A DNA stretch of 63,999 nucleotides, the filler included, from Perkinsus olseni (lineage: Eukaryota): NCBI GenBank assembly GCA_013115125.1. It is 16 parts of 16 records of this genome, joined end to end, with 100 filler letters (N's around TTAATTAATTAA, not from the genome) between each part and the next. Parts side by side here need not be neighbours in the genome. Positions count along the whole stretch, not along the records: positions 16,509 to 20,504 come from JABANN010001326.1; 15 more parts are not named here. One strand, written 5' to 3'. Positions 1,072 to 44,880 of this stretch are shown here, piece by piece. How positions within the stretch are numbered: position 1 is the first letter of the stretch; each line of letters starts with the position of its first letter. Position numbers and translations under genes: made by a program. The notes beneath the pieces were generated by a model. The model did not search any database. It saw only the letters and a list, made by a program, of their open reading frames with translations, and was not told the DNA's origin.

Positions 1072-3991
<2,920 letters not shown>

Positions 3992-4055
3992 GTAATGAGG
4001 GATTGTTGTGCTATGGGGTTGGCTTCCCTCTTGCCGCTCTCAATTCTCCTCTTCT

Positions 4056-4155
4056 NNNNNNNNNNNNNNNNNNNNNNNNNNNNNNNNNNNNNNNNNNNNT
4101 TAATTAATTAANNNNNNNNNNNNNNNNNNNNNNNNNNNNNNNNNNNNNNNNNNNN
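4056..4155. other. Artificial scaffold linker (44N-TTAATTAATTAA-44N); same linker at 8186, 12312, 16409, 20505, 24589, 28668, 32727, 36783, 40838, 44881, 48915, 52935, 56954, 60967
   Basis: 15 identical 100-bp spacers with stops in all six frames; intervening lengths fall monotonically 4030, 4026, 3997 ... 3913 bp. Confidence 0.99.
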
Positions 4156-4873
4156 CTAGCTCAGCGTAACACAATCAAATGGAGACAGTATCCGTAGACA
4201 GGATCGCACAATTGGAGACATAACACTACTACATCATCGTTGGCATTGTTGGTATGCAATGCATACTATGCATCCCGAGTTGTGTTATTAGTGGTTATCG
4301 CAATACGAGAAGTACTTCAGTATCTTCGAAAACTCCCAAATTGAGTGACCTTGCTCGTGAGCTTTGCCTTCCGTGTTCGTGTCCCACGGTCGACTTCCGA
4401 TGAGCTTCGGCGTTCGCTTATCAGATAAAGTGCCGCTCAAGACTCACGGAGCCGAGTGATCGGACTGAAGTTTAGTCAGTAAACCACTTTGAACACGACC
4501 GGACCACTTTTACCGACACGCTTTGTCGGTATTTTTCCAACAGGAAAACTACCTAGCTAAGTTTGCAGAACTTAAATATTTGCATACCAAACGGAGTAAG
4601 GCTCGATCTGAGCTAACCGTTCGTAGTGGAGTCACGAGGGCGTGATGTTCAGACTAAGCGTGTCGCTGCCAGCGTTACGCTGGAAACGACGAATCTTCGG
4701 AAATGTCTCTGAACTAAATAAGAAGTGGTGTTATTGTGCGTCATTGCTAACACCATGACACCAGTCGGTGACTGTTATTTGTACAAGAGTTTGGCTTTCT
4801 ACGCTCATTCTTGTTTGACTTGAACAGCTTGATCCCCTGCTCACTTAGGCCGCGTGAAAGAGTGCACCAAGGA

Positions 4874-8318: not shown

Positions 8319-11300
8319 TTTATGGTTTTTGGCAAACCCGGCGCCTTACCACCAAGCAGAAGGTCCAACTGGTGAAGGAGACTTTAGCGAATATGAAAAC
8401 TCCGTGGCATGCCCTTGTCGGGCTGGCCCATGGTGATCTGAACGGTGCCAATATTATCATTGATGCCATGGACGCCGTATGGCTTATCGACTTCGCCACT
8501 TCCGAGAAGCTCCCACTTTGTACCGACCTCGCCAAGATGGAAGTCTGTATGTTTCTAGAGTATGCCTGCATTCCCATAGCAGTCAGCATGCTTCTCAGCT
8601 CGCTGCAGGCCTGCGGTCCTCCCCAGGAGCACGCCAAGTTGATGTCCGATTGGCTCCGAATTGATCCGGAGTTGGCAGAGCGGCTATACCCCCGCCTTTG
8701 TTCATTACGCGGGTCTGAAATCGCGCTGCATTCGGCTATAGATGCTGCTTGTAAGGACGGCTTCGAGGACAAGGCACCGGTGTTGAAGGGACGGCTGACG
8801 ACTGACGCCAAGGTCACCATCGATACAGTACGGCAAGCTTTGCAGTATGTGGATAGAAACTTGGTCAGCACGGGACCTCGGCATGATGGTTTGGACTCCG
8901 CTTTGGATTGCGAGCCCAAGCGGACCATTTCATCGGCCTCGACTGTGAAGTCGTCGGATATCGCTCCTCCTGGGATGCCTTTGAAGCAAGTGTCTATGCC
9001 GGCGACATGTTTGAGGCCGGATACTGGCTATCAGATTCCCCCGAGTCGAGAGACTACCAACTCTAGCTACGTGTCGGCGGCGAGTGACAGTCAGCATGAG
9101 CCGAGAGTGTCACATGACACTAGTCGAGCGAGTAGTGGCTGCCGTTCAATCAATAGGCTTAGCCGATACTCGAGCTCGAATTCACGACGTGTCGGTAGTG
9201 ACTCGCCATGGGCATCTAGAGTACCCGTATGTAGGGGTGGCCGAGGGCTAAGTTATGTGATGACCAACATCAGGCGTATGCGTCGTCTCTTCAAGGAGGG
9301 ATTTCGCTCTAGCCTGAAGTATATGCTGCACAAGCGGTTACTACAGCAGCTTGGAGGACTCAGCTCCGTTGATCTGGACTGTTTGCAGCTCTGGTTGCCG
9401 CTGCTTCGGGAGACATCTCGCATTATAGGCTACCGGGACGTTCCTCCGTGGATGAAGCTGATCGCCGTTCACTACATCGACATGCTTTGCGACAAGATCC
9501 TGCTCGCGCTGGGTGGATCCTTAACTGAAGAATGCTCCGTTAATCTGATTAATTGGATCAATGCCGCCCCGAGCTACTCTCTGAGACTGCCTCTTGTATG
9601 TCGGACAAACAATCAGGTGTCGGAGGAGTTCATGGACATTGTCGACGGCGGTGAGGAGTTGGCACCTCTCTCTCTAGAGGATATCACAGGTGATCCGGCA
9701 TCGCCAGAGAGTCGGCTCCGGGCTGGATCTTTGCTGAGTTCCGCTGAGTTCGAAGAAGAAGCGGTGCGATATAGAGCCATGATGAAGTCTCAGTATGCCT
9801 ATGAGGTTGACTCTATCAGTGGTCATCAGATGGACGTGATGCAGGCCTGTGCGAACTTCCGTTTGGTGCCGTGGAGGGACGGTGCTGGTCATAATGCTAT
9901 GTTCGACATAGAGCAGTGCATTCGTCGGGTAGACGATCGCCCCAACGGCAAGTGCTTTGCACGGCAGTTCTTAGTTTCCGGCCCGCCAGGGTCAGGAAAG
10001 AGCTGCCTGCTCAGAAGGCTGGTTATCTACTGTCTGAATAGCCAGAATGATCTCTTGCCCTTGGTCATCCCGGTTAGAGAGCTGGCCAAGCACCATGTCC
10101 TGATGAGCCAGCATGTTGACGAGCGTTTGAGCACCTCGTCCTCTTCGAGTGCTGCCGCTGGTGATACCTCCTGTTGCCTGTCTGAGAGTGAAAGCGACGG
10201 TCCGGACCCAGAGACGCTTCTAGAGGCTTGGATGAGATCCCGGCTTGGTGATGAGTCCAGCCGTTTGTACTTGATTCGCATGATGCTCGCTAGTGGCCGG
10301 TTGTTGATTCTCATGGATGGTCTGGAAGAGGCCGGCTCTGCCAAGGAGACAATTGAGAGTCTCCTAGCGTTACTCGCTGTCAACAAGCATCGTGTCGTCT
10401 GCACAGTGAGGGAGGGCTACCTCAGTGACCGCTCGCGGAAACGTCTCACGGCAGCAGGCTTTGAAGGGTCAAGTCTGTCTCTACTGGATGCTGACCAACG
10501 CCGGTTCGTGGCAACGGCGCGGTTGGGTCAGGCTAGCGCTGAGAAGTTCGAAGACTTTCTGAATGAGTTTCAGGAGAAAGTTGCTAGTTCTCCCGAGGGT
10601 GTTGAATTTATCAACACCCCAGCTTGTCTGAATATGCTGCTATGTTATTGGGAGCAGAAGCATCCTATCCGTACCGATGACAGGAGGGGGAGTATCGCTT
10701 CTCTGCGGAGAGACCGCTCGTCCGGTCGGGGATCTAATATCAACTTCAGTAATGTAGGGAGGCTAGAGTCTCAGGCTATCGACGAGGAAGACTCCCCGAA
10801 CCCGATGCCACCCCAGGCTCCGCCAATGCTCACGTCATCGCCAAGCCGGATGATCAGTGGACTGTCTACGCCGACGGATGACGGTTCACCGGGCGACGGC
10901 GATAGCCTGTCCATCTCTGATGTTTACCGGGTTTCCTTGTCAGTATTGCTGCAGAGAGTCGTCATGAAGCACCAGGCCGACCGTGCCAAGGTGAAGGACA
11001 CTGTTTTCCGGTACAAAACTCTTCTAGAGACGATCGCCTTCTTCATGATGGTTGAGCGGAAGACCCATTTCTCGGAAAATGATGTCAAAAGATGGGGCCT
11101 CGTCGACACTGAGTCCAACTTGGCGGCCTGGAAGAGTCTTTCACTCTCGATTTCTAGAGGGCGACTCCCACTACTGGCAAGCTTGACGGGTTCCAAGGAA
11201 GTCTCCAAGCTCTATCGGTTTGTGTTCGCCTCATTCCAGGATTTCCTGGCGAGTGAGGCGTTGACGAGGGACCTTCGAAGCGAAGATGAACTGCCTTCGC

Positions 11301-12240
11301 TAGAAGAGTTGTTAGGGTCCGGCCCGGATGGCGACGATTGGTGGAACACCTTCTTGAACATGGTCGTTGAGAGAAGTCCGTCGAAGTTCAAGAAGCTTTT
11401 CGAGAGTCGGTCTTGTAGTTGGAAGCCCAGTGAGCATAACGGTGACACGCCTCTACACGCAGCTGCGCGGAATAGACGCCTGGTCATCTTTGCGGCCTTG
11501 CCGAAGATGAGCGAGTGTGTACGGAGGAACATGAATGTCTACAACAACGAAGGGCTGCTGCCTTTACACGTAGCGGCCAAGGCGGGCAATGCCATGGCGT
11601 GTGAAGCTATGCTCTCTGGAGGCTATGCCGACCTTTGGGCTCAGGCCAAGTACTCGGGCTGGGTACCCCTACATTTTGCTGCCGCTAACCACCAGAAGGC
11701 CGTCATCGACGTTCTCCTTGAGGCGGCCAGGAAGGAAGGTGAATGGAGTCGAGAAGGACGACGGGTAGCTCTGCCGAAGCTGCACGACTGTGGCCGTCAG
11801 TTAGCTATGGACATCCTCTCTAAGGACTGTTCACTGACAGATGAAGAATTCGTTCTCAGAGCGAAGAAAACCTTCCCTGAACTCTCCTACTTCCGAGGGC
11901 GGAGCGACACCACTCCTGATCAGAGCGCTGCTGTTGCCCTTGACCCAGCTGAGATCGAGTTCCGACGTACTATGGGTGCGCTACTGTCGGTCTTCTGGGT
12001 ATGCGCTGATCGGTACGATGACTTCGTGCGGAATCAGCCACCGAACAACAGGCTCTCGAGGGAGAACTGGAATCACATTCAGAGGTGGGCTAAGAATGTA
12101 ATGAAGCTGACCGATCCCAATGAGCCTGATGCTGTTGACGCAATGCTGTGCTTCATGTCGATGCACGACTTGGGTAAGATGAAGGACTTCAGGGAGGAAC
12201 TGGCTCCAGGGTATCAGGACCACGACGCTGGTCTGTCACT
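8319..12240 (+). CDS. NLR-like STAND protein: APH/ELK-type kinase-like segment + NACHT NTPase + 3 ankyrin repeats + HD-like domain; one ~3.9-kb exon, partial at both ends
   Basis: 1290-aa ORF; HGDLNGAN (8429) and LIDFA (~8483); Walker A GPPGSGKS (9980-10003); Walker B LLILMDGLEE (10301-10330); VCTVR sensor-1; YRFVFASFQDFLA WHD-like motif (11213); GDTPLHAAA, GLLPLHVAA, GWVPLHFAA; MHDLGK (~12161). AG acceptor at 8317-8318, GT donor at 12241. Confidence 0.88.
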
Positions 12241-13149
12241 GTAATGATTTTGTTGATTTTGATCTGGTTATGGTCACGTATTCCAGTGAGCCGATTATAT
12301 TATGATACGATNNNNNNNNNNNNNNNNNNNNNNNNNNNNNNNNNNNNNNNNNNNNTTAATTAATTAANNNNNNNNNNNNNNNNNNNNNNNNNNNNNNNNN
12401 NNNNNNNNNNNACTGAACAGAAAAAGGCTTCGGTCAGTCCTGGGATTGATCCCGAGTCCCGGGATCGATTTACTGAACAGCCCGAGCGTATTTATGGGAA
12501 GTTCTATAAACAGTCCGCACGCCATTGGAACTTCCTACGAATGTCTCTGAAACTCAAGTCCGGTGACTGAGCTTCCGAAATGTTAAGTTGGCTTCTGCCG
12601 TGACGATCGAACACCGCAAAAATTAGTGAGACTCCATTAGCGGGAGTCGGGAGCAAGACTCTCCGGGTGCGGTGTACAGCAGAAATTTTGTTACTTAACG
12701 CTTCACGCGGCACCAGCCATGAGACTCTCATGATGAGAGTCAGCGCAACTTGCAGAGCGCCAGTTCATCAGTCGGGCAACCCGAGTTTAAGTCCTGGTGG
12801 AGCCCCATTGAAGGGCCGCACACAGAGTAACGTGAAAATCTCGAAGTGCAGCAGCGCTGGACAGATGATGTGGGGGGCTAATGACCCTGGGGAGGGGAAC
12901 GATTACTTGACGGAGAACGCCATCGGCCGTAATGGCTATACGGTATAGCATAGTGAGCATGTTATCAACGTGATTGTAGCGGATTCTCTCCCAGTATAGC
13001 CTACGGCTACCGTGGTAGTCGCTACAGGCTCTATGCACCCCCCTTTAGCGAGTCTAGTGGCTTACTTCGTTAGCCCGGCTACCTTACTAAGGCAAGCTTA
13101 GCCGCTGGAACTCCCAGCCCCTTCCAGCCTGGAAGGCGCGGGGATGTCT

Positions 13150-16508: not shown

Positions 16509-17381
16509 GTACGTACAGTGATAAGTCGTACAGTTCCGACTCGTACAGTTGAAACTCGTACAGTGTTATTTCGTACACCGAATTTTCGTACTTCTCGAAA
16601 TTTTCGTACAGCTGGGCAATTTTTTAATCATTATTTTTGCGCCGCGCAAAAATAATGATTATAAAATTGCCCGCGCGCTCCGCGCGCGACCCCCCGCTTG
16701 CCAAGGACTCCGTCCGTATTTCCTAATTGCCGACTGTCGGGATTGATCTCGGGTGATCCGCTGAATTACAGGCGCTCCTACCACTGCACCAGTTTCGCGT
16801 TCGCAAGTTTCTAAACCTTGAAGACTGAAGTCTATTGGACGGACAAATTTTTATCAGTTATTAGCTGTGCACTATACTCTGGGTCTTTTAGGTTCGTGGT
16901 CTTAAGTGCGAGCCCCTCTCATCGATAAATGTCACGAGCTTAGTATTTCGGGACTAGTATCTACCCGAGGGTATTGGACCCTTTCGCCTTCGAGTTTAGA
17001 AATGGCTTTTCAGGCGAGTTGGTTAGGCCAACGATTTTTTACACATGTGGCACAGGTTCGAGACTCCCTCAAAGAATTACAGCTATCGAAATAGCACCTG
17101 CCCAAATTTGCCGCGATGTGCGTTAGGAGGCAGCTGTACCGAATAACGCTGTACGAATGAAGCTTGTACCGCTGGATACTGTACGAATGGTCAGTGTACG
17201 GCTGGATACTGTAGACTTGTCTCTGTATCTGTGGATACTGTACTGAACGACACTGTATCACTGAAAACTGTACGAGCTGTCACTGCACGACTTATCACTG
17301 TACGGCTTGAAACTGTACGAGATACTCCTGTATGAATGAAAGGCGTACCAAATAAGGCCTGTACGAACCCGAGGGTGTACC
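16509..17381. mobile_element. Non-autonomous DNA transposon with arrays of CGTACAG subterminal repeats (MuDR-like), left end cut by scaffold edge
   Basis: CGTACAG repeats at 16512-16611 inverted relative to CTGTACG repeats at ~17135-17365; terminus GGGTGTACC at 17373-17381; ~16850-17381 aligns by eye in reverse with 44307-44880. Confidence 0.8.
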
Positions 17382-17690
17382 ACGGCCTAGTCCAGGGAGG
17401 GTTGAGCCATGTGGTAGCTGAGCCGCATTAGTCGGAGGAGTAGGTAAACCGTCGGGGCCTAGTTGCTGCTGCTGCTCACCACCACCACGGCCTAGTCCAG
17501 AGGGGGTTGAGCTGTGTGGTAGCTGAGCCGCATTAGTCGGAGGAGTAGGCAAACCGTCGGGGCCTAATTGCTGCTGCTGCTCACCACCACCACCACCACG
17601 GCCTAGTCCAGAGAGGGGTTTGAGCCGCGTGATGGCTGAGCCGCGTCTGTCGGAGGGATGGGCAAACCGTTGGGGCCTAGTTGATCTTGC
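17381..17690 (-). repeat. ~105-bp coding tandem repeat, about 3 copies (PDGLPTPPTNAAQLPHSSTPSGLGRGGGEQQQQLG)
   Basis: Units start at 17381, 17486 and 17597; a 12-bp repeat (RNDG x3) lies at ~17813-17855. Confidence 0.9.
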
Positions 17691-17909
17691 TCCGAAGAGG
17701 GAATGCTCAGTGGGGAGTGAAATGCTCCGTCCTGAGTGACACGTTGGCCGTCTGGTCCCAGTGGATGTTGTGGATTGCCACGACCGTTGCCCAGTGGCTC
17801 GTTGTTGGGGTTGTTGCGACCGTCGTTGCGACCATCGTTGCGACCGTCGTTGCGAGAACGGCGACGAGCCTCAAGCTCGAGGTGGCGTTGTTCACGAGGG
17901 GTAACCATG
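17382..17909 (-). pseudogene. Gag-like N-terminal ORF of a probable retroelement, frameshifted and interrupted by the transposon
   Basis: Starts MVTPREQR, low-complexity Pro/Gly/Gln repeats; 2-nt excess near 17610 shifts frame relative to the other repeat units; cut by transposon end at 17381. Gag identity is inference. Confidence 0.45.
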
Positions 17910-18057
17910 AAGACTGATAGTCCAGGAGTCACTGAGGAGATAGTCTTCGTAGTACAATACCCCTCGCGTGGAAACTATGGTCAGATAGAAGTCTCGCATA
18001 GTTGGCCTTCATTGAAGGCCCTTCAACGTGATCGCTAGTAAGAGTGGTTGATGATCA

Positions 18058-18760
18058 TAGCCGCCGAAGCGGCTACACCGTCCAGCCACTTAGTGATAGC
18101 ACCACAAATAAAGCCGAAGCTAAACTTGTAGTGACTGATCCGTAGGTTTCCCTACATCTCAGATTAACCGTAGCACTACAGGTATGGGGTCCGACCTCGT
18201 AGTGACTGACCACGGTGTTACCCGCAGCCAGATTTTCCTGGTATTATCAGCACAGTTGAGTAGAGGTATCCCTAGTCAACCGTGACTGTCTAGTAACACC
18301 GGTAACTAGACAGATTTCTCAAGCTCATCAGCACCATCTGATCCGAAAAGGGCCGGTTCTAGATGATGACTGACTAGTAGCGCCGGCCACTAGCCAGATT
18401 CACAACCTCAGTAGTGCGGTAGCATGCAGACGAGTCCACAGAGGCTACCACAACTGACTAGTACCGCCTCTAGTCAGGTGCTCGCTGTACAAAACGCATA
18501 AGCATAGCCTGGCCCTCGCTGTCGGAGTAGTCGTAACGGCGTAGCGAAGGTCCCTTTGCCTCGGGCGCTAGTAACCGGCGACGTCACCAAAGTGATTCAG
18601 GTTCACTAGTGAGTACCAGGCATGAATTAGCTCACTAGTGACCCAAGGATACGCAGCGACTCCCACCTGGCCCAGGTGACCTGGGCTCTCCCCAGTGTTT
18701 GCGTACCCTTAGTACCTACCTTGTAGTGGATGTGATTAATTGATTAGTCACTAGTGGAAA
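18058..18760 (-). ncRNA. Highly structured leader with five periodic hairpin units
   Basis: Plus-strand (G/A)TGACTG...CAGATT units at 18131-18165, 18202-18234, 18282-18316, 18366-18400, degenerate at 18451-18480; c(UUCG)g-capped 7-bp stem on minus strand at 18058-18075; further stems at ~18603-18640 and ~18646-18708. Confidence 0.55.
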
Positions 18761-18824
18761 CGTCACGTGCCAGCCCTTAAACAATTGTGAATATCTACTA
18801 TCGTCTTAATAATTAAAAATCATC

Positions 18825-19951
18825 TTAACTGCTATTGCTCATAGGCTTCCAAATCCAACCCATATCCAAGTAGTGTTGAGTAGTCCGGTTGGGGGAACTG
18901 TTACCGTTGTCACATTGCTGACCAGTATCTCGTCGAGTCATGTAGTTCCGGAATGTCTGTAGTAGTGGTCCTGGGGTTTCCAACCCACGCGTCGCACAGA
19001 ACGTAGACGTAATTGGGATCCATCGGTAACGTCGTCGCGCAAGGGAATAGCAAGGCCTTCCCATAACCTTGGGGTCCATCGACTTAGTATACCGCACAAG
19101 TAGTCAAAGTTCTGGAGTCCATCGACGAGCGAGTTGCACAATGACATAATACAGGATGACTCGGGGTAGTGAACATAGTAGAGAAGAAAATACGGGTCAG
19201 AGGCCGTCACATAGTTACCATCATCGCACAGTTGGGCATAGCAACCAAGGTGCATCCATCACTCGCACAGAACATACTAGGTAGTGTTAACGTTATGGTG
19301 CAGCCATACTAGAGCCTTGGGGTCAGTTGACTCGATTACACCGCATTTAGTAAGTATCAGTGAGGAGGGGTCAGTCAGTTAGGAGGCCACACAGAAACAT
19401 CACCCTAGTAGAGGATCTGGAGTCCGTCGAGTTGTAGAGAGGTACCGTAGTGAGTCCAACTGGGGTCCGTCGACGATGATAATGTAGTAGTCGAAGATGA
19501 TCGGTTGAAATTCACAGTGAACCAAGTAGTAGCTCTGGAGTCCACCAAACGGGGATGTTGGCTTCTACTCGCAACGGTCATAGTCGCCAAAGAAAGTTAG
19601 TCCCACGCTTGCACAGAACATACTCAGGTATCGGCGTGAACTCGGTGCAATCAGTCTCCGTAGTAGTCGTAAGTAACAGCCTGTGACGCACTTGAGTGAA
19701 GTACAGTCGGTGTAGTTCTCAAGGTCGTCAATACCACCAACCAGACATAGTCCAACGGTAAAGGATAATCTCTTACACATGACGTCAAAGGTGTAGTAGA
19801 TAATCCCGGTAGAATGCGCGTGGTTAGTAGAGACATTGCAGGAATTCTCGAAAATAGTCGTCGCAACATAGTCCTCGGTGGTTCCATGGTTAGTCTCCCA
19901 CTTCCGCGGAGGGGGATGGACAACCCAACACTCTTGGAGTAGTGATATCAT
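18825..19951 (-). pseudogene. Frameshifted Cys/Tyr-rich ORF of unknown function
   Basis: Overlapping ORF pieces in alternating frames with a recurring motif (SMFCASVG ~19610, SMFCASDG ~19265, STFCATRG ~18995). Confidence 0.4.
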
Positions 19952-20378
19952 AGCAATAATCTAGTGATAGTAGGCAGTCATAGTGCGGGCAGCACGAAGG
20001 GGTAACAAAAAGGACAATAACAAAAAATCACAGCAGTAGTTTGGGTAGTTCGACTAGTCGTATCCAACCGTTTCAGATGGGACGCTTAGTAATGTTGGTT
20101 TAGTCACTAAACTTTAGTGCACTCGCGCTCGGTGTAGCGCGCACCGTCACGTGATTTGCACAACCTTTCGGCCTTTTTTGGGGGTGGTTCAAATTCAATG
20201 CCAAATACGGTGGTACAAACTCAAGCCAGCGTTTTAATTCTTCAGTAGGCTGATTGGAACCCACAACATATTTTTTCATTCTTATCATACTCTGACCGCC
20301 AGACTCTTGTGCTCCTTCGGCGAGCCTCCGTACTCGCTCACCTCATCTTCCTCTCAGGGTTTTCGGAATATGCCTTAC

Positions 20379-20504
20379 GGGGATGTTCGCGTTTCGTACA
20401 CCAAATAGTCGTACATTTTCGACTCATGTCACCAATACTCATACATCTTCGAATCGTACACGAAATGCTCGTACACCGAAAAGTCATACACAAAATACTC
20501 ATAC
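20379..20504. mobile_element. End of a DNA transposon with TCGTACAC subterminal repeats; a related end lies at 36883-36977
   Basis: Abrupt switch at GGGGATGTTCGCGTTTCGTACAC to repeated TCGTACAC/TCATACA motifs running into the scaffold end. Confidence 0.6.
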
Positions 20505-21495: not shown

Positions 21496-24341
21496 TTGAT
21501 GATGATGGATGGGCCCTACAGAGTCAGGGCGGACTCGGAGCAGTCGAGGGACGTGTACGCCCGTGAATCGATACGTCCAGCGGTGATCATCCCAGAGCTC
21601 ACCATCCAAGGCTATGATAGAACGCTGAGGGCTGTGGCTGGCAGCGAGGCGGCCCTTCTAATCGAAGCGCTTCAACCAGATCGAACCGGTCTGGATGGCA
21701 GCCTCAGTATCCCCAGTATTCCGAAGGGTCCGATGCCGACGCACTAATCGTGGTTCGCGACTCGTGAGAGGGAGATGAGCTATGTTTTGGGTATCCTGTA
21801 CCAGCGTGTCCTTCAGTGTAATGCTTCTGACAACCATGTGGTCTTCGGGCCCCCCTCCATTATTCGTAACGCCCTGCCCGTTCTGAACTCACGAGGCGAT
21901 CCTTTCAGATAGGAGTAGTGTCGTCAGCGGCCCTCGTGGCAGGCTAGCTCGCCGTGAGTCTTCTCGTATCAATGTCCATCCATCACTGCCAGGCTGCAGA
22001 AACAGACCCTAACGGCAGACCAACCTGCTGACCGTCGAATTGTGACGAACTCCTTGGTCTGCTGCCAATCCGCCAGTTCTCTCCAGGATACCTGGCTGCC
22101 AGATTCTGGCATGAGCGCTGGAACTTCGGTGCGCCGCAGCAGCACTGCCGGTGGAAGAACGCGGAATCGAGCGCAAGAGGCTTCGACGGCTGCACGCTAC
22201 TACCGCCGTCTCGTCTCGCCTACGTTCATGAGGAACTGCAAGGTAGAAGGATACAGATACAAGCCTTGAGGGATGGGGATTCCCTTGCAACGTAGTGAGA
22301 GTCGCTGCCTCCGACGAAGACAGGACTGCATGGATTGGAAAGCGTTCGATGGACTTAATTCACCCAGCCGCACTACGGCCTGTACTAGGCGTATTGGCCA
22401 GAACGACTCCGGCAAGGCCGGTGCCCGCTTCGCTCCGCTGTGCTCGAGATGTAACCTTTCCATTGTGGATGAGCAGACGTTTCTTCGTGCTTTCGATTGC
22501 GTTCCACCGATAAACCCGACACTCGAGTGCCTAATGCCAAACCGATGGTCCGTGACTCCCTCCAGCTCAGAGTTGTGGCGGAAGCCGTCGATTTTCCCTT
22601 CATGCGTGCTCTCATCGTCGTTGCTGTCGGGTTGATGGTGCCAGCTGTGTATGGCAGCGGAAGGTGGAAGAAAATGCGCTCCCTGTTTAAGTCTAGAAAA
22701 TCTGGAAGAGCGGATTTGGCTACAGTAAGGAGAGGCACGGCTTAACTTTTCATCTGGGATATGCTCGCCTTCTCACCTTCTCCTGGCCAGGTTGACGACA
22801 CCCCCGGGGCCGGCGAAGCTGAGGGAGCGGTTGCCCGCAGGGTCAACAGGGGGCGGTCGTCTGATACTCTCGGCACCAATAGTGGTCCAATGTCTTATGC
22901 TTTCGGGGTCAACAGGGGTGCTACCGTCGGAGATAGCAGTAGCCGTATGTATGGTACTCTACCGGCTAGGAGGGGTGCCACCCTCGGACCTGGCAGAGAT
23001 GATCGTCTCGGGGCTAGCGGAAGTCGGCTGTCTTATAACCCCGGGGCTAGCAGAGATGATCGTCTCGGGGCTAGCGGAAGTCGGCTGTCTTATAACCCCG
23101 GGGCTAGCAGAGGTNNNNNNNNNNNNNNNNNNNNNNNNNNNNNNNNNNNNNNNNNNNNNNNNNNNNNNNNNNNNNNNNNNNNNNNNNNNNNNNNNNNNNN
23201 NNNNNNNNNNGTTCGTCTCGGGGCTAGCGGAAGTCGGCTGTCTTATAACCCCGGGGCTAGCAGAGGTGATCGTCTCGGGGCTAGCGGAAGTCGGCTGTCT
23301 TATAACCCCGGGGCTAGCAGAGGTGATCGTCTCGGGGCTAGCAGTGGCCGTATGTATGGTACTCTACCGGCTAGGAGGGGTGCTTCCCTCGGGACTGGCA
23401 GGGTTCCGGTGCTTGATAACCCCGGGGCCAGCAGGGGTGATACCCTGGGGGTTACGAGGATTCAGGTGGATTATACCCCGGGGTCCAGCAAGGCACAGGC
23501 GGCTGATGCCCCCAAGGTGAGCAGGACTCTCGACGCCGTTGAGGTGCCCCAGGTGAAGAGCCCCCTGGCTCAACCGTGCTGTTCCCTTTAATCGTATCCT
23601 GTCAGACGAAGGGAGCTCCAGTGAGAGCCGGGCCCAGTGCGGTACCAGCAGCTCAGGTTACCGTAGGAATCGCCGGACCCTAGCTTCTCGCTCATTCTTC
23701 GTTGTCAGAGGACCGCCTCTCTGGTCTACACCACACCGCTGGGCTCTAGGGATAAGAAACGTGACTTTGTACGCACTGAGTACGGGCCTTCGTCTCGGAA
23801 TCTGAATTCATCAGGGTGGCATCGTTGTCTACGGCAAGGAGGTGGCCCGTGGGGGCTCGATCGAGCACAGTCTCGATCACCTCTATTTCTGGGACAGCCA
23901 GTGAGTCTTACGGAACCAAAGCCAGACTGCTCCTGCCAATATTTTACCGCTGTTAGGCAGTATTACAATAACCGTAGCCGTCTGAACGTCCTGTTCGACT
24001 TGCCTGAAATATTACCGCGAAACTGCCCGACGGACGCCACAACAACACTGAGGACGTGGCTCGAGTTTTGGGGCGCTGAGGGGTACCACCAAATCTACAC
24101 ATTCGAGAATGAGTTCGCCGCCGAGTATATCAAAAACGAACATCTAATTGCGGGCAAACCGAGAGGCTTGGTGAACCATATTATGGCGATGGAAGAGGAG
24201 TTCCGGAATACTATGTATTGGGGATTCGACACCAGCAAGTTGGCCATCTGTCTCTGGGGTTATGTGTTCGACCTAGTGTACAAGCAGCAGAGGAAACGTG
24301 AACTCTTCCTTTGCCCGTCCGTTACCGCGGTAAGGCTATGA
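21496..24341 (+). pseudogene. Lineage-specific hypothetical gene, probably disrupted, containing a coding minisatellite
   Basis: Protein-like segments (21496-21747; ~22040-22295 LLPIRQFSPGYLAARFWHERW; 22761-23591; 23901-24341) separated by in-frame stops; no known domain. Confidence 0.4.
23001..23342 (+). repeat. 57-bp minisatellite (DRLGASGSRLSYNPGASRG), at least 4 copies, spanning an N gap
   Basis: Near-identical units at 23001, 23058, 23211, 23268; gap 23115-23210; flanked by a ~44-bp direct repeat at 22935 and 23340. Confidence 0.95.
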
Positions 24342-44306: not shown

Positions 44307-44880
44307 GGTACACCCCCGGGCTCGTACAGGCCTTATTCGGTACTCCTTTCATTCATACAGGAGTATCTCGTACACTTTCAGGCCGTACAGTGATAAGCCG
44401 TGTAGTGACAGGTCGTACAGTTGCCAGTAATACAGTGTCGTTCAGTACAGTGTCCACAGATACAGTGACAAGTCGTACACTATCCAGCCGTACACTGACC
44501 ATTCATACAGTATTCAGCGGTACAAGCTTTATTCGTACAGTGTTATTCGGTACAGCTGCCTCCTTACGCAAAATTTGTGGAGAAGTAATTTAGATAGCTA
44601 AAACTCCTTCAGGGAGATTAGAACTTATGCCACTTACGTGAGAAACCATTGTCTTAACCAACTCGCCTGAAAACCCATCTCCAATTCAGAAGGCAAAAGT
44701 GTTCAATGCCCACGGGTAGATATTAATGCCCAGGGTATCCCCGGCGGGGATACCTCCAGCTCCTGACACCTATCGATGAGGAGGGCTAACACTCAAGGCC
44801 ACAGACATAGAGGACCCAGAGGTTGATGCACTGCACACCTGGTAACTCACAAAAATTAGTCGGTTTAATGAATTCTAATG
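44307..44880. mobile_element. Second, diverged copy of the CGTACAG-repeat element at 16509-17381
   Basis: Begins GGTACACCC; same repeat order and unique internal sequence (TAACCAACTCGCCTGAAAA) as the reverse complement of 16850-17381. Confidence 0.85.

What the first reader, a model, noticed from the sequence alone, without database searches (positions are those of the whole stretch)
18058..18760. Periodic array of hairpins with fixed flanks upstream of a gag-like ORF
Seen: five 30-35-nt units at spacings 71, 80, 84, 85. On the minus strand they read AATCTG-[variable stem-loop]-CAGTCA(C/T), the fifth being degenerate. Interiors differ but still pair (CTGTCTAGT/ACTAGACAG; CTGACTAG/CTAGTCAG). 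Intervening segments form their own stems (GTTGA/TCAAC, CATCT/AGATG, GGTAGC/GCTACC), and a c(UUCG)g hairpin at 18058-18075 points to minus-strand RNA. Inference: a repeated protein-binding or processing module, such as a packaging signal, IRES, or precursor cut into small RNAs. Repeat/spacer sizes are CRISPR-like but structure rather than sequence is conserved.
Basis: partly seen in the sequence, partly recalled or inferred. Interest (0 to 1): 0.72.

Follow-up and report, generated by a model that had tools for sequence, protein, structure and literature searches.

The report
Tandem two-hairpin RNA modules, Perkinsus
Upstream of a repeat-protein gene of the shellfish parasite Perkinsus olseni lie five tandem copies of a two-hairpin module that looks selected to fold as RNA on one strand; it matches no known RNA family, its job is unknown, and the neighbouring gene is not gag-like.

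Summary
On the minus strand, 18096-18482, five ~70-84-nt units each consist of hairpin A (AAUCUG...CAGU), one U, hairpin B (CAY...RUG) and a CU(G)A linker. A c(UUCG)g hairpin follows at 18057-18076.

Four lines of evidence point to a selected minus-strand RNA fold:
- Folding z is -6.6.
- The hairpins hold 16 G-U pairs on the minus strand against 1 on the plus. Background hairpins in the window are symmetric, 118 against 123.
- Among the units, 10 of 21 pairs changed on both sides and stayed paired.
- The six listed strain differences break no pair, and one is an A-U to G-C double change.

No Rfam family matches. The ORF downstream is not gag-like. It is a P/Q/G-rich repeat protein, 83-85% identical to a hypothetical Perkinsus olseni protein. 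There are no LTRs.

My best reading is a cis-acting structured leader (outron) whose conserved helix junction is a repeated docking or processing site. Transcription, binding and cleavage are untested. I could fetch no other Perkinsus genome, so cross-species conservation is open. The scan holds no earlier look-alike.

The parts
18411..18482 (-). Unit 0 (degenerate flanks): hairpin A0 18454-18477, U, hairpin B0 18415-18452, linker
   Evidence: It was held out of the model, yet it is the best non-training match of model R1: 22.2 bits, E 0.0037, full length.
18328..18402 (-). Unit 1: hairpin A1 18370-18397 (12 bp, 2 G-U), U, hairpin B1 18332-18368, linker CUGAUGAGCUUGAGA
18247..18318 (-). Unit 2: hairpin A2 18286-18313, U, hairpin B2 18251-18284, linker. 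It carries the strain-level A-U to G-C double change at 18303/18296.
18170..18236 (-). Unit 3: hairpin A3 18206-18231 (10 bp, 3 G-U), U, hairpin B3 18174-18204, short linker
18096..18167 (-). Unit 4: hairpin A4 18135-18162 (GAAA loop, tandem G-A/A-G), U, hairpin B4 18100-18133 (UUCG loop)
18057..18076 (-). Terminal c(UUCG)g hairpin closing the array
   Evidence: -12.2 kcal/mol, 0 of 300 shuffles as good. The strain change at 18071 keeps the pair as U-G.
18500..18774 (-). Upstream structured domain with CACUAGUGA hairpins (motif at 18757, 18641, 18612) and a branched stem. It is partly multi-copy in another strain.
   Evidence: Local fold. In DNA run X8, summed contig depth is 373-739 here against about 157 over units 3-4, and one contig of another locus matches 18559-18774.
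17603..17908 (-). Downstream ORF (ATG 17908): a P/Q/G-rich protein with 35-residue repeats. In this copy the repeats continue out of frame down to 17298.
   Evidence: No Pfam family.
18006..18019 (.). A 14-nt forward-reverse-forward palindromic stretch between the array and the ORF, absent from the contigs of runs X7 and X8
   Evidence: 14 letters left out at 18006; sequence read.

Best explanation
The array is a selectively maintained RNA structure on the minus strand. An ancestral ~80-nt module was duplicated in tandem to give five copies. Each module is two hairpins that abut across a single U. The helices have drifted freely but always with compensation. The letters at the helix junction stayed fixed: AAU|CUG...CAG|U|CAY...RUG|CU(G)A.

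The array lies 148 nt upstream of the start codon of a repeat-protein gene on the same strand, and Perkinsus replaces mRNA 5' ends by spliced-leader trans-splicing. I therefore read it as a cis-acting structured leader, most likely part of the outron of that gene's pre-mRNA. In this reading the five identical junctions serve as a multivalent docking or cutting site for one factor that recognises both sequence and shape, and so influence processing or output of the downstream message.

Shown here: the periodic anatomy, the strand, the pairing, and the signs of selection on pairing. Inferred: that it is transcribed with the gene, that a protein binds the junction, and that this affects expression.
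For: Anatomy and chance: the two flank patterns each occur 4 times in the window, only here (expected 0.23 and 0.68).

Folding: z is -6.57 on the minus strand against -4.11 on the plus. In a 200-nt sliding scan the minus strand reaches z -2.2 to -5.0 only in windows from 17800 to 18499 and in 18600-18799. From 18700 to 20399 z lies between -1.7 and +2.8.

Single hairpins: for 7 of 11, 0 of 300 shuffles fold as well; for 2 of 11, 2 of 300; for 2 of 11, 13-17 of 300.

Strand: the 11 hairpins hold 110 Watson-Crick pairs, 16 G-U pairs and 0 A-C oppositions on the minus strand. That is 16 G-U on the minus against 1 on the plus, and 8 of 11 hairpins are more stable on the minus strand. The 110 comparable hairpins elsewhere in the window are symmetric, 118 against 123.

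Loops: 3 of the 7 four-letter loops are UUCG (twice) or GAAA.

Covariation among units: 91.5% of 82 cells pair, against 74.7 +/- 3.4 when partners are shuffled (0 of 500 reach it) and 22-46% when partners are slid. Ten of 21 pairs changed on both sides. RNAalifold on its own predicts the same two helices. Each unit's own arms pair in 38 of 40 cells (A) and 30 of 30 (B); swapped arms reach at most 31 and 27 (0 of 44 derangements).

Held-out test: a model built from units 1-4 finds unit 0 as the best other match in the window.

Between strains: of the 6 differences listed inside the array for DNA run X8, 5 fall in pairs of the local fold and none breaks a pair. 18303/18296 is an A-U to G-C double change, present in X8 and absent in X7. 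Simulation gives P = 0.0018 for no broken pair together with a compensated double.

Position: the array is on the same strand as the ORF, whose ATG is at 17908. Outrons are removed in Perkinsozoa (passages of PMC9399869).
Against: Transcription is not shown; no run on record as RNA holds the stretch. No other Perkinsus species could be compared, so all covariation comes from five paralogous units and one other strain. The list of strain differences was truncated: 164 are not shown, and contig 12 of X8 has 17 differences of which I saw 8. A pair-breaking change may therefore be hidden. The fold used in the simulation was derived from the reference sequence. The locus is crowded with tandem repeats and the genome with short palindromes, so a DNA-level origin of the hairpins is plausible. 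Unit 0 scores only 22.2 bits, no more than the best of 80 chance loci preselected for the exact flanks (21.9 bits). Nothing identifies a binding factor or an effect on the gene. If the array is outron, it is discarded, which makes a function less obvious.
Confidence: 0.4

Rival explanations
1. It is an independent non-coding RNA or precursor. The roughly 0.4-0.7-kb structured RNA would either be its own gene product or be cut at the conserved junctions or linkers into phased two-hairpin RNAs of about 70-84 nt, in the manner of polycistronic snoRNA or miRNA clusters.
For: The conserved letters sit exactly at helix junctions and linkers, where processing enzymes usually read. Unit size is regular at 69-84 nt. 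Structure ends abruptly on both sides. A partial paralogue of units 0-2 exists in another strain, with the flanks kept and the hairpin B interior changed. This rests: a 202-nt contig over 18367-18561 with 38 differences, and the loose end at 18277, which I read by eye.
Against: There is no match to any of 4227 Rfam families even at E up to 10. No C/D or H/ACA box arrangement is visible by eye. Stems of 8-15 bp are too short for Dicer-type products. No small-RNA data could be consulted.
Confidence: 0.22
2. It is a neutral DNA feature: an old minisatellite whose palindromes arose at the DNA level, for example by hairpin-mediated repair after transposon excision (reported as frequent in this genome), and have no RNA function.
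For: The locus is full of tandem repeats, with periods of 12, 15, 105 and about 300 nt. A forward-reverse-forward 14-nt indel lies 38 nt below the array (18006-18019). A transposon-like element with 15-nt subterminal repeats lies at 16510-17381. Earlier notes of this scan describe excision scars in this genome (these are unchecked notes).
Against: Decay of DNA palindromes should give G-T and A-C oppositions equally, as seen in the rest of the window (118 against 123). The array has 16 against 1. The helices differ completely between units yet keep pairing. UUCG and GAAA loops are present. The strain differences preserve pairs. Fixed junction letters at a fixed period are not expected of scars.
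Confidence: 0.15
3. It is the first reader's specific options: a retroelement leader (packaging or dimerisation signal), or an IRES for the downstream ORF.
For: It is a multi-hairpin leader directly upstream of an ORF with an arginine-rich N-terminus. Hairpins A1 and A2 carry self-complementary GCCGGC and ACCGGU at their tips (read by eye).
Against: No gag, protease, RT, RNase H or integrase domain appears in 61 ORFs around it. No LTR-type direct repeats are present. The ORF has no cysteine, so it has no zinc knuckle, and it matches a hypothetical cellular repeat protein. Units 3-4 are covered by a single contig in DNA run X8.
Confidence: 0.03
4. It is a degenerate or atypical self-cleaving motif. 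The junction between units 1 and 2 reads CUGAUGA-N6-GAAA-[hairpin A]-GUC-[hairpin B], the letter order of a hammerhead core.
For: The letters are seen. Helix III, the H17 site and helix I of a hammerhead would map onto hairpin A, the single junction nucleotide and hairpin B.
Against: There is no helix II; only 6 unpaired-looking nt lie between CUGAUGA and GAAA. An extra U precedes the first pair of 'helix III'. The core letters are complete in only 1 of 5 linkers, and partial (CUGAUAA...GAAAA) in a second. No hammerhead or other ribozyme family of Rfam matches at E up to 10.
Confidence: 0.03

Closest known systems
Xist A-repeat and similar modular lncRNA repeats (recalled, not tested by any search)
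   Same: Several tandem copies of a short module able to form two hairpins within one long RNA, thought to act as a multivalent protein-docking platform.
   Different: In Xist the core sequence is conserved and the spacers vary. Here the junction letters are conserved and the helices vary. The organism, size and context are different, and no partner protein is known.
Polycistronic snoRNA and miRNA clusters of protists, plants and animals
   Same: Tandem structured units of 70-90 nt on one strand, with conserved letters at unit borders that could guide processing.
   Different: No C/D or H/ACA boxes are present, the stems are too short for Dicer products, and no Rfam match exists. Processing has not been shown.
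Duplicated structured elements of viral UTRs (flavivirus xrRNA and dumbbell pairs; recalled)
   Same: Tandem ~70-80-nt modules with a conserved junction and co-varying helices in an untranslated region.
   Different: No consistent loop-linker pseudoknot was found by eye, there is no Rfam match, and the locus is cellular.
Retroviral and LTR-retrotransposon leaders (Psi, DIS)
   Same: A multi-hairpin leader upstream of an ORF, with palindromic tips on two hairpins.
   Different: There are no LTRs and no gag or pol. The ORF is a cellular repeat protein.
Transposon excision-scar palindromes reported for this genome
   Same: Short inverted repeats in non-coding Perkinsus DNA. One such forward-reverse-forward indel lies next to the array at 18006-18019.
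   Different: The array hairpins show a strand-specific G-U excess, periodic fixed flanks, stable tetraloops and compensatory change.

Membership tests
LTR retroelement leader / packaging signal | Flanking long terminal direct repeats | tested here: not met
   Self-comparison of the window finds only tandem repeats and a transposon-like inverted copy (16839-17381 with 44307-44864). No LTR pair surrounds the locus.
LTR retroelement leader / packaging signal | gag and pol domains downstream | tested here: not met
   Of 61 ORFs between 12.4 and 24.6 kb, none has a retroelement Pfam family at E up to 0.1. The ORF matches a hypothetical P. olseni repeat protein.
LTR retroelement leader / packaging signal | Primer-binding site complementary to a tRNA 3' end | not tested
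   No tRNA set of the organism was available. ARAGORN finds no tRNA gene in the window.
Hammerhead ribozyme | Three helices around the CUGANGA / GAA / NUH core | tested here: not met
   Helix II is absent, helix III has an extra U, and the core letters are complete in 1 of 5 linkers. There is no Rfam hammerhead match at E up to 10.
Box C/D or H/ACA snoRNA cluster | C (RUGAUGA) and D (CUGA) boxes brought together by a terminal stem, or a hairpin-hinge-hairpin-ACA layout with pseudouridylation pockets | tested here: not met
   No snoRNA family matches. By eye, the letters flanking the one UGAUGA and the next CUGA do not pair in register, and the hairpins have no pockets.
pri-miRNA / Dicer-substrate cluster | Hairpin stems long enough to yield ~21-nt duplexes | tested here: not met
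   Stems are 7-15 pairs long.
CRISPR array | Near-identical direct repeats separated by unique spacers, in a prokaryote or its virus | tested here: not met
   The genome is eukaryotic: the protein hit is named Perkinsus olseni and no prokaryote genome is held for the window. Only 5-7 junction letters are conserved and the units are only 65% identical.
Transposon excision scars (forward-reverse-forward palindromes) | Short near-perfect palindromes with no strand preference and no periodic flanks | tested here: not met
   G-U pairs are 16 on the minus strand against 1 on the plus in the array, against 118 and 123 in background hairpins. The flanks are periodic.
Telomerase RNA | Template of about 1.5 telomere repeats | tested here: not met
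   No 10-mer of the assumed repeat occurs on either strand of the window. The repeat unit was recalled from memory, not verified for Perkinsus.
IRES | Cap-independent initiation activity | not testable with these tools
   This needs a bicistronic reporter.

The most novel reading that the evidence does not exclude
The array could be a new kind of eukaryotic 'repeat-and-variable-helix' RNA precursor. The invariant junction AAU|CUG..CAG|U|CAY..RUG|CU would be a cutting site, and the array would be diced into five different ~80-nt two-hairpin RNAs. A second possibility is that the junctions are operators bound by the arginine-rich N-terminus of the downstream protein, as an autoregulatory loop.
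Probability: 0.12. Interest if true: 0.8.

Novelty: new variant of a known kind. Interest (0 to 1): 0.47.

Why it matters
I found no paper describing structured non-coding RNAs in Perkinsozoa. Four literature searches gave nothing on such arrays. Gene regulation in this lineage is thought to be largely post-transcriptional; that is general knowledge, seen in the abstracts listed. A locus where RNA pairing has visibly been kept through complete turnover of helix sequence is therefore a concrete, testable handle on a cis-regulatory or processing signal in a trans-splicing parasite. The repeated, invariant junction gives a ready bait for finding the factor that reads it. If the array proves to be neutral DNA, it would instead show that strand-biased hairpin arrays can arise without RNA function, which matters for scans like this one.

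Tried and rejected
Whole-genome search: no genome is held for the window.

Other copies elsewhere: the joint pattern of the three flanks found 118 metagenome and 120 viral loci, each with a single match and no array, as expected by chance. Model R1, run on 80 of those 198 fetched loci, gave at most 21.9 bits.

Expression: no RNA holder is listed. Runs X7 and X12 are RNA only by the tool's guess. X7 contigs cover 17938-18184 and 18172-18648. X11 and X12 cover only 17755-17988 and 17690-17886. I draw nothing from the parts without cover.

Known RNA families and elements that gave nothing:
- Rfam at gathering scores over the whole window gave 0 matches.
- Rfam at E up to 10 over 17600-19200 gave one weak mir-2032 match, on a 12-nt coding repeat.
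- No tRNA genes.
- No spliced-leader motif within 3 mismatches (motif recalled).
- No telomerase-type template (repeat unit recalled).
- Hammerhead, C/D, H/ACA, K-turn, SRE, IRE and loop-linker pseudoknot readings were checked by eye and dropped.

Upstream 'genes': the 106-aa ORF has no homologue of near length. The 131-aa ORF has only 2 hits among 1.84 billion representatives. I inspected the better one, and it is an artefact of a repeat protein. That DNA is diverged ~300-nt repeats read in shifting frames.

Method failures: my own two-hairpin descriptor was too lax, giving 103 and 104 hits, and told nothing. MAFFT alignments A1-A3 misplaced the arms. I replaced them with a script and alignment A4.

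Earlier findings of this scan: nothing at or like this locus.

Literature: search listings only; passages of PMC9399869. No paper describes such an array.

Full report
WHERE WE ARE. The window is eukaryotic. No prokaryote genome is held for it. A protein encoded next to the finding is 83-85% identical to 'hypothetical protein FOZ63_022873, partial [Perkinsus olseni]', which agrees with earlier, unchecked notes of this scan that name the genome Perkinsus. The window contains paired runs of 44 N about every 4 kb. These explain a spurious 4-kb 'repeat family' and are masking, not biology.

THE OBSERVATION. The minus strand shows AATCTG at 18400, 18316, 18234 and 18165. CAGTCA lies at 18372, 18288, 18208 and 18137, and GTGCT at 18334, 18253, 18176 and 18102. 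One more degenerate copy lies upstream, with CTG at 18477 and CAG at 18456. The two flank patterns each occur 4 times in the 63,999-base window, only here. The expected counts are 0.23 and 0.68, and 0 of 100 shuffles reach 4. The unit reads AAU-[CUG..hairpin A..CAG]-U-[CAY..hairpin B..RUG]-CU(G)A-linker and measures 69-84 nt. There are five copies (units 0-4, 18096-18482), followed by the UUCG hairpin.

IS IT MORE THAN CHANCE, AND ON WHICH STRAND?
- The minus strand 18050-18500 folds at -185.2 kcal/mol against -147.2 +/- 5.8 for shuffles (z -6.57). The plus strand folds at -149.1 (z -4.11). In both cases 0 of 100 shuffles do as well.
- A 200-nt sliding scan finds minus-strand z of -2.2 to -5.0 only in windows from 17800 to 18499 and in 18600-18799. 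From 18700 to 20399 z lies between -1.7 and +2.8.
- Taken singly, 7 of 11 hairpins beat all 300 shuffles, 2 of 11 are reached by 2 of 300, and 2 of 11 (A0, B3) by 13-17 of 300.
- The 11 hairpins hold 110 Watson-Crick pairs, 16 G-U pairs, 0 A-C oppositions and 7 other mismatches on the minus strand. Folded on the plus strand, the same segments hold 1 G-U pair, and 8 of 11 are less stable there.
- As a control, 110 hairpins found elsewhere in the window with a transition-tolerant rule are symmetric, 118 G-T against 123 A-C. The 4 array hairpins that pass the same rule show 0 against 7.
- Three of the 7 four-letter loops are UUCG (twice) or GAAA. The energy model does favour these loops when it chooses a fold.

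COVARIATION AMONG THE UNITS. MAFFT aligned the shorter pieces badly, so I first compared arms by script. Each unit's 5' arm pairs with its own 3' arm in 38 of 40 cells for hairpin A and in 30 of 30 for hairpin B. With arms swapped between units the maxima are 31 and 27, and 0 of 44 derangements reach the observed value.

An alignment of units 1-4 with both ends anchored (A4) gave the following:
- 91.5% of 82 cells pair, against 74.7 +/- 3.4 for shuffled partners (0 of 500 reach it).
- Ten of 21 pairs changed on both sides, against 5.3 +/- 1.4 for shuffled partners.
- With partners slid by 1-3 columns, 22-46% of cells pair.
RNAalifold, given no structure, predicts the same two helices: 20 pairs, 10 with two-sided change. 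The five basal pairs CUG/CAG and CA/UG never vary, so they say nothing about structure. They are the conserved junction.

A covariance model built from units 1-4 (R1) scores the training units at 60.7-78.2 bits, which is by construction. It finds the held-out unit 0 (18411-18482, minus strand) as the best other match in the window at 22.2 bits and E 0.0037. The next match is a partial palindrome at 16.1 bits (22 matches listed at E up to 10). No further units lie upstream.

BETWEEN STRAINS. Fifteen public runs hold part of the stretch, and none is on record as RNA. I laid four of them. DNA run X8 carries a variant of the locus. Six differences are listed inside 18057-18484.
- On the minus strand they read C>U at 18071, C>U at 18080, U>C at 18296, A>G at 18303, U>C at 18346 and C>A at 18480.
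- 18303 and 18296 are partners in hairpin A2, so A-U becomes G-C. X8 has both changes and X7 has neither.
- 18346 turns a G-U pair into G-C in hairpin B1.
- 18071 turns C-G into U-G in the terminal hairpin.
- 18480 lies just outside hairpin A0 and makes its flank more like the consensus.
- In the local fold, 5 of the 6 lie in pairs and none breaks a pair.
In 100,000 simulations of 6 random changes, no broken pair occurred with P 0.069, a compensated double with P 0.013, and both together with P 0.0018.

Two caveats apply. The table of differences was cut (164 not shown; contig 12 of X8 has 17 differences between 17700 and 18567, of which 8 are listed), so a pair-breaking change could be hidden. 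The fold was also derived from the reference sequence.

X8 holds a second, 202-nt contig over 18367-18561 with 38 differences. It also has a contig that leaves the window's sequence at 18277. Read by eye, its loose end keeps the CAC...GUGCU flanks and the basal stem of hairpin B2, with a different, still self-complementary interior. So at least one partial paralogue exists. Units 3-4 are covered by a single X8 contig, while 18536-18817 has two to five times that summed depth.

WHAT IT IS NOT.
- No Rfam family matches at gathering score anywhere in the window. At E up to 10 in 17600-19200 the only match is a weak mir-2032 hit on a coding 12-nt repeat.
- There are no tRNA genes.
- The 'gag-like ORF' is not gag-like. 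Among 61 stop-to-stop ORFs from 12.4 to 24.6 kb, Pfam finds no retroelement domain at E up to 0.1, and no LTR-type repeats exist. The ORF itself (ATG 17908 to stop 17603) is a cysteine-free protein with an arginine-rich start and 35-residue P/Q/G-rich repeats.
- In this copy the repeats go out of frame after the third repeat, whereas the P. olseni homologue P0004 reads through.
- The ORF then runs into an 870-bp element (16510-17381) with 15-nt CGTACAGT subterminal repeats in inverted orientation.
- The hammerhead-like letters CUGAUGA-N6-GAAA-[A]-GUC-[B] at the unit 1/2 junction lack helix II, need a bulged U, and are complete in only 1 of 5 linkers.
- C/D and H/ACA layouts do not fit.
- No telomerase-type template and no spliced-leader copy is present. 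Both motifs were recalled from memory.
- The minus-strand ORFs upstream (18941-19258, 19568-19960) have no credible homologues. That DNA is a set of diverged ~300-nt repeats read in shifting frames. It is rich in ACTAC on the minus strand, with 25 sites between 17953 and 20049 and 22 in the 18-20 kb bin against 0-10 in the other 31 bins.

WHAT IT MOST LIKELY IS. The pairing, the strand bias, the stable loops and the compensated changes argue that selection acts on a minus-strand RNA fold. I put about 0.8 on that much. Helices that vary freely beside junction letters that never vary are typical of a site read by a protein or enzyme at the helix junction, and five copies give multivalency.

The array ends 148 nt before the ATG of a gene on the same strand. 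Perkinsozoa trans-splice a leader onto mRNAs and discard the upstream outron (passages of PMC9399869). My best reading, at 0.4, is therefore a cis-acting structured leader or outron element that docks a factor and affects processing or output of the downstream message.

The rivals and their confidences are:
- An independent ncRNA or a precursor cut into ~80-nt RNAs (0.22).
- Neutral minisatellite DNA with scar-type palindromes (0.15). The G-U asymmetry and the covariation count against it, but the repeat-rich context and a forward-reverse-forward 14-nt indel at 18006-18019, absent in X7 and X8, favour it.
- A retroelement leader or IRES (0.03).
- A degenerate self-cleaving motif (0.03).

LIMITS. 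I could not fetch any other Perkinsus genome. The pattern scans of metagenome and viral collections returned only single, chance-level matches (118 and 120 loci; 80 of the 198 fetched loci scored at most 21.9 bits with R1). Transcription, ends, cleavage and binding are all untested. The scan's own records hold nothing at or like this locus. Four literature searches, seen as listings only, found no description of such an array.

VERDICT. This is a real, uncatalogued, modular RNA-type structure at a single locus plus one partial paralogue, with good internal evidence for selection on pairing and an unknown job. The retroelement framing is wrong. Interest is moderate.

Noticed in passing
window 4056-61066, about every 4 kb: Paired runs of 44 N separated by 12 bases recur at about 4.0-4.1-kb intervals, with two ~95-N runs at 23115 and 46459. 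They create the spurious 27-copy 'D1' repeat family. This is masking, not biology.
   Followed up: yes
window 16510-17381; 44307-44864; 20395-20460: An ~870-bp transposon-like element with arrays of a 15-nt CGTACAGT motif in inverted orientation at both ends and a central palindrome (16614-16672). A 78%-identical inverted partial copy lies at 44307-44864, and another end at 20395-20460. In DNA run X8 the summed depth there is 3354-4846, against about 120-160 nearby. The element abuts the 105-nt repeats of the ORF.
   Followed up: partly
window 18006-18019 and 17953: Between the array and the ORF, the window has a 14-nt forward-reverse-forward palindromic stretch that the contigs of runs X7 and X8 lack. 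Those contigs instead carry a 22-nt insertion behind 17953. The 14-nt stretch resembles the excision-scar pattern that earlier notes report for this genome.
   Followed up: partly
window 17298-17908, minus strand: The repeat-protein ORF goes out of frame after its third 35-residue repeat in this copy, whereas the P. olseni homologue P0004 reads through. This could be an allele-specific frameshift, a pseudogene or a sequencing error.
   Followed up: partly
window 17953-20049, minus strand: Strand-specific excess of the pentamer ACTAC: 25 sites, and 22 in the 18-20 kb bin against 0-10 in all other 2-kb bins. Diverged ~300-nt repeats are marked by ATGTTCTGTGCRAG at about 19620, 19275 and 19003, and by GGACYCCAG. 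This region is less folded than shuffles.
   Followed up: partly
window 8372-12244, plus strand: A 1290-residue open frame combines a TCAD9-like kinase-fold piece, a NACHT/STAND NTPase, ankyrin repeats and DUF6829. It looks like a STAND-type signalling or immunity-like protein in a perkinsid.
   Followed up: no
window 19825-20001, plus strand: Contigs of runs X7 and X12 both leave the window's sequence exactly behind 20001 with the same continuation. The plus strand reads GT at 20002-20003, as at a splice donor. DNA depth there is 2-4 times the neighbours, so it may be an exon of a multi-copy gene or element.
   Followed up: no
window 22761-23591, plus strand: An ORF built of 19-residue repeats (GASGSRLSYNPGASRGDRL; 57-nt DNA period, copies up to 99% identical), interrupted by an N run.
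   Followed up: no
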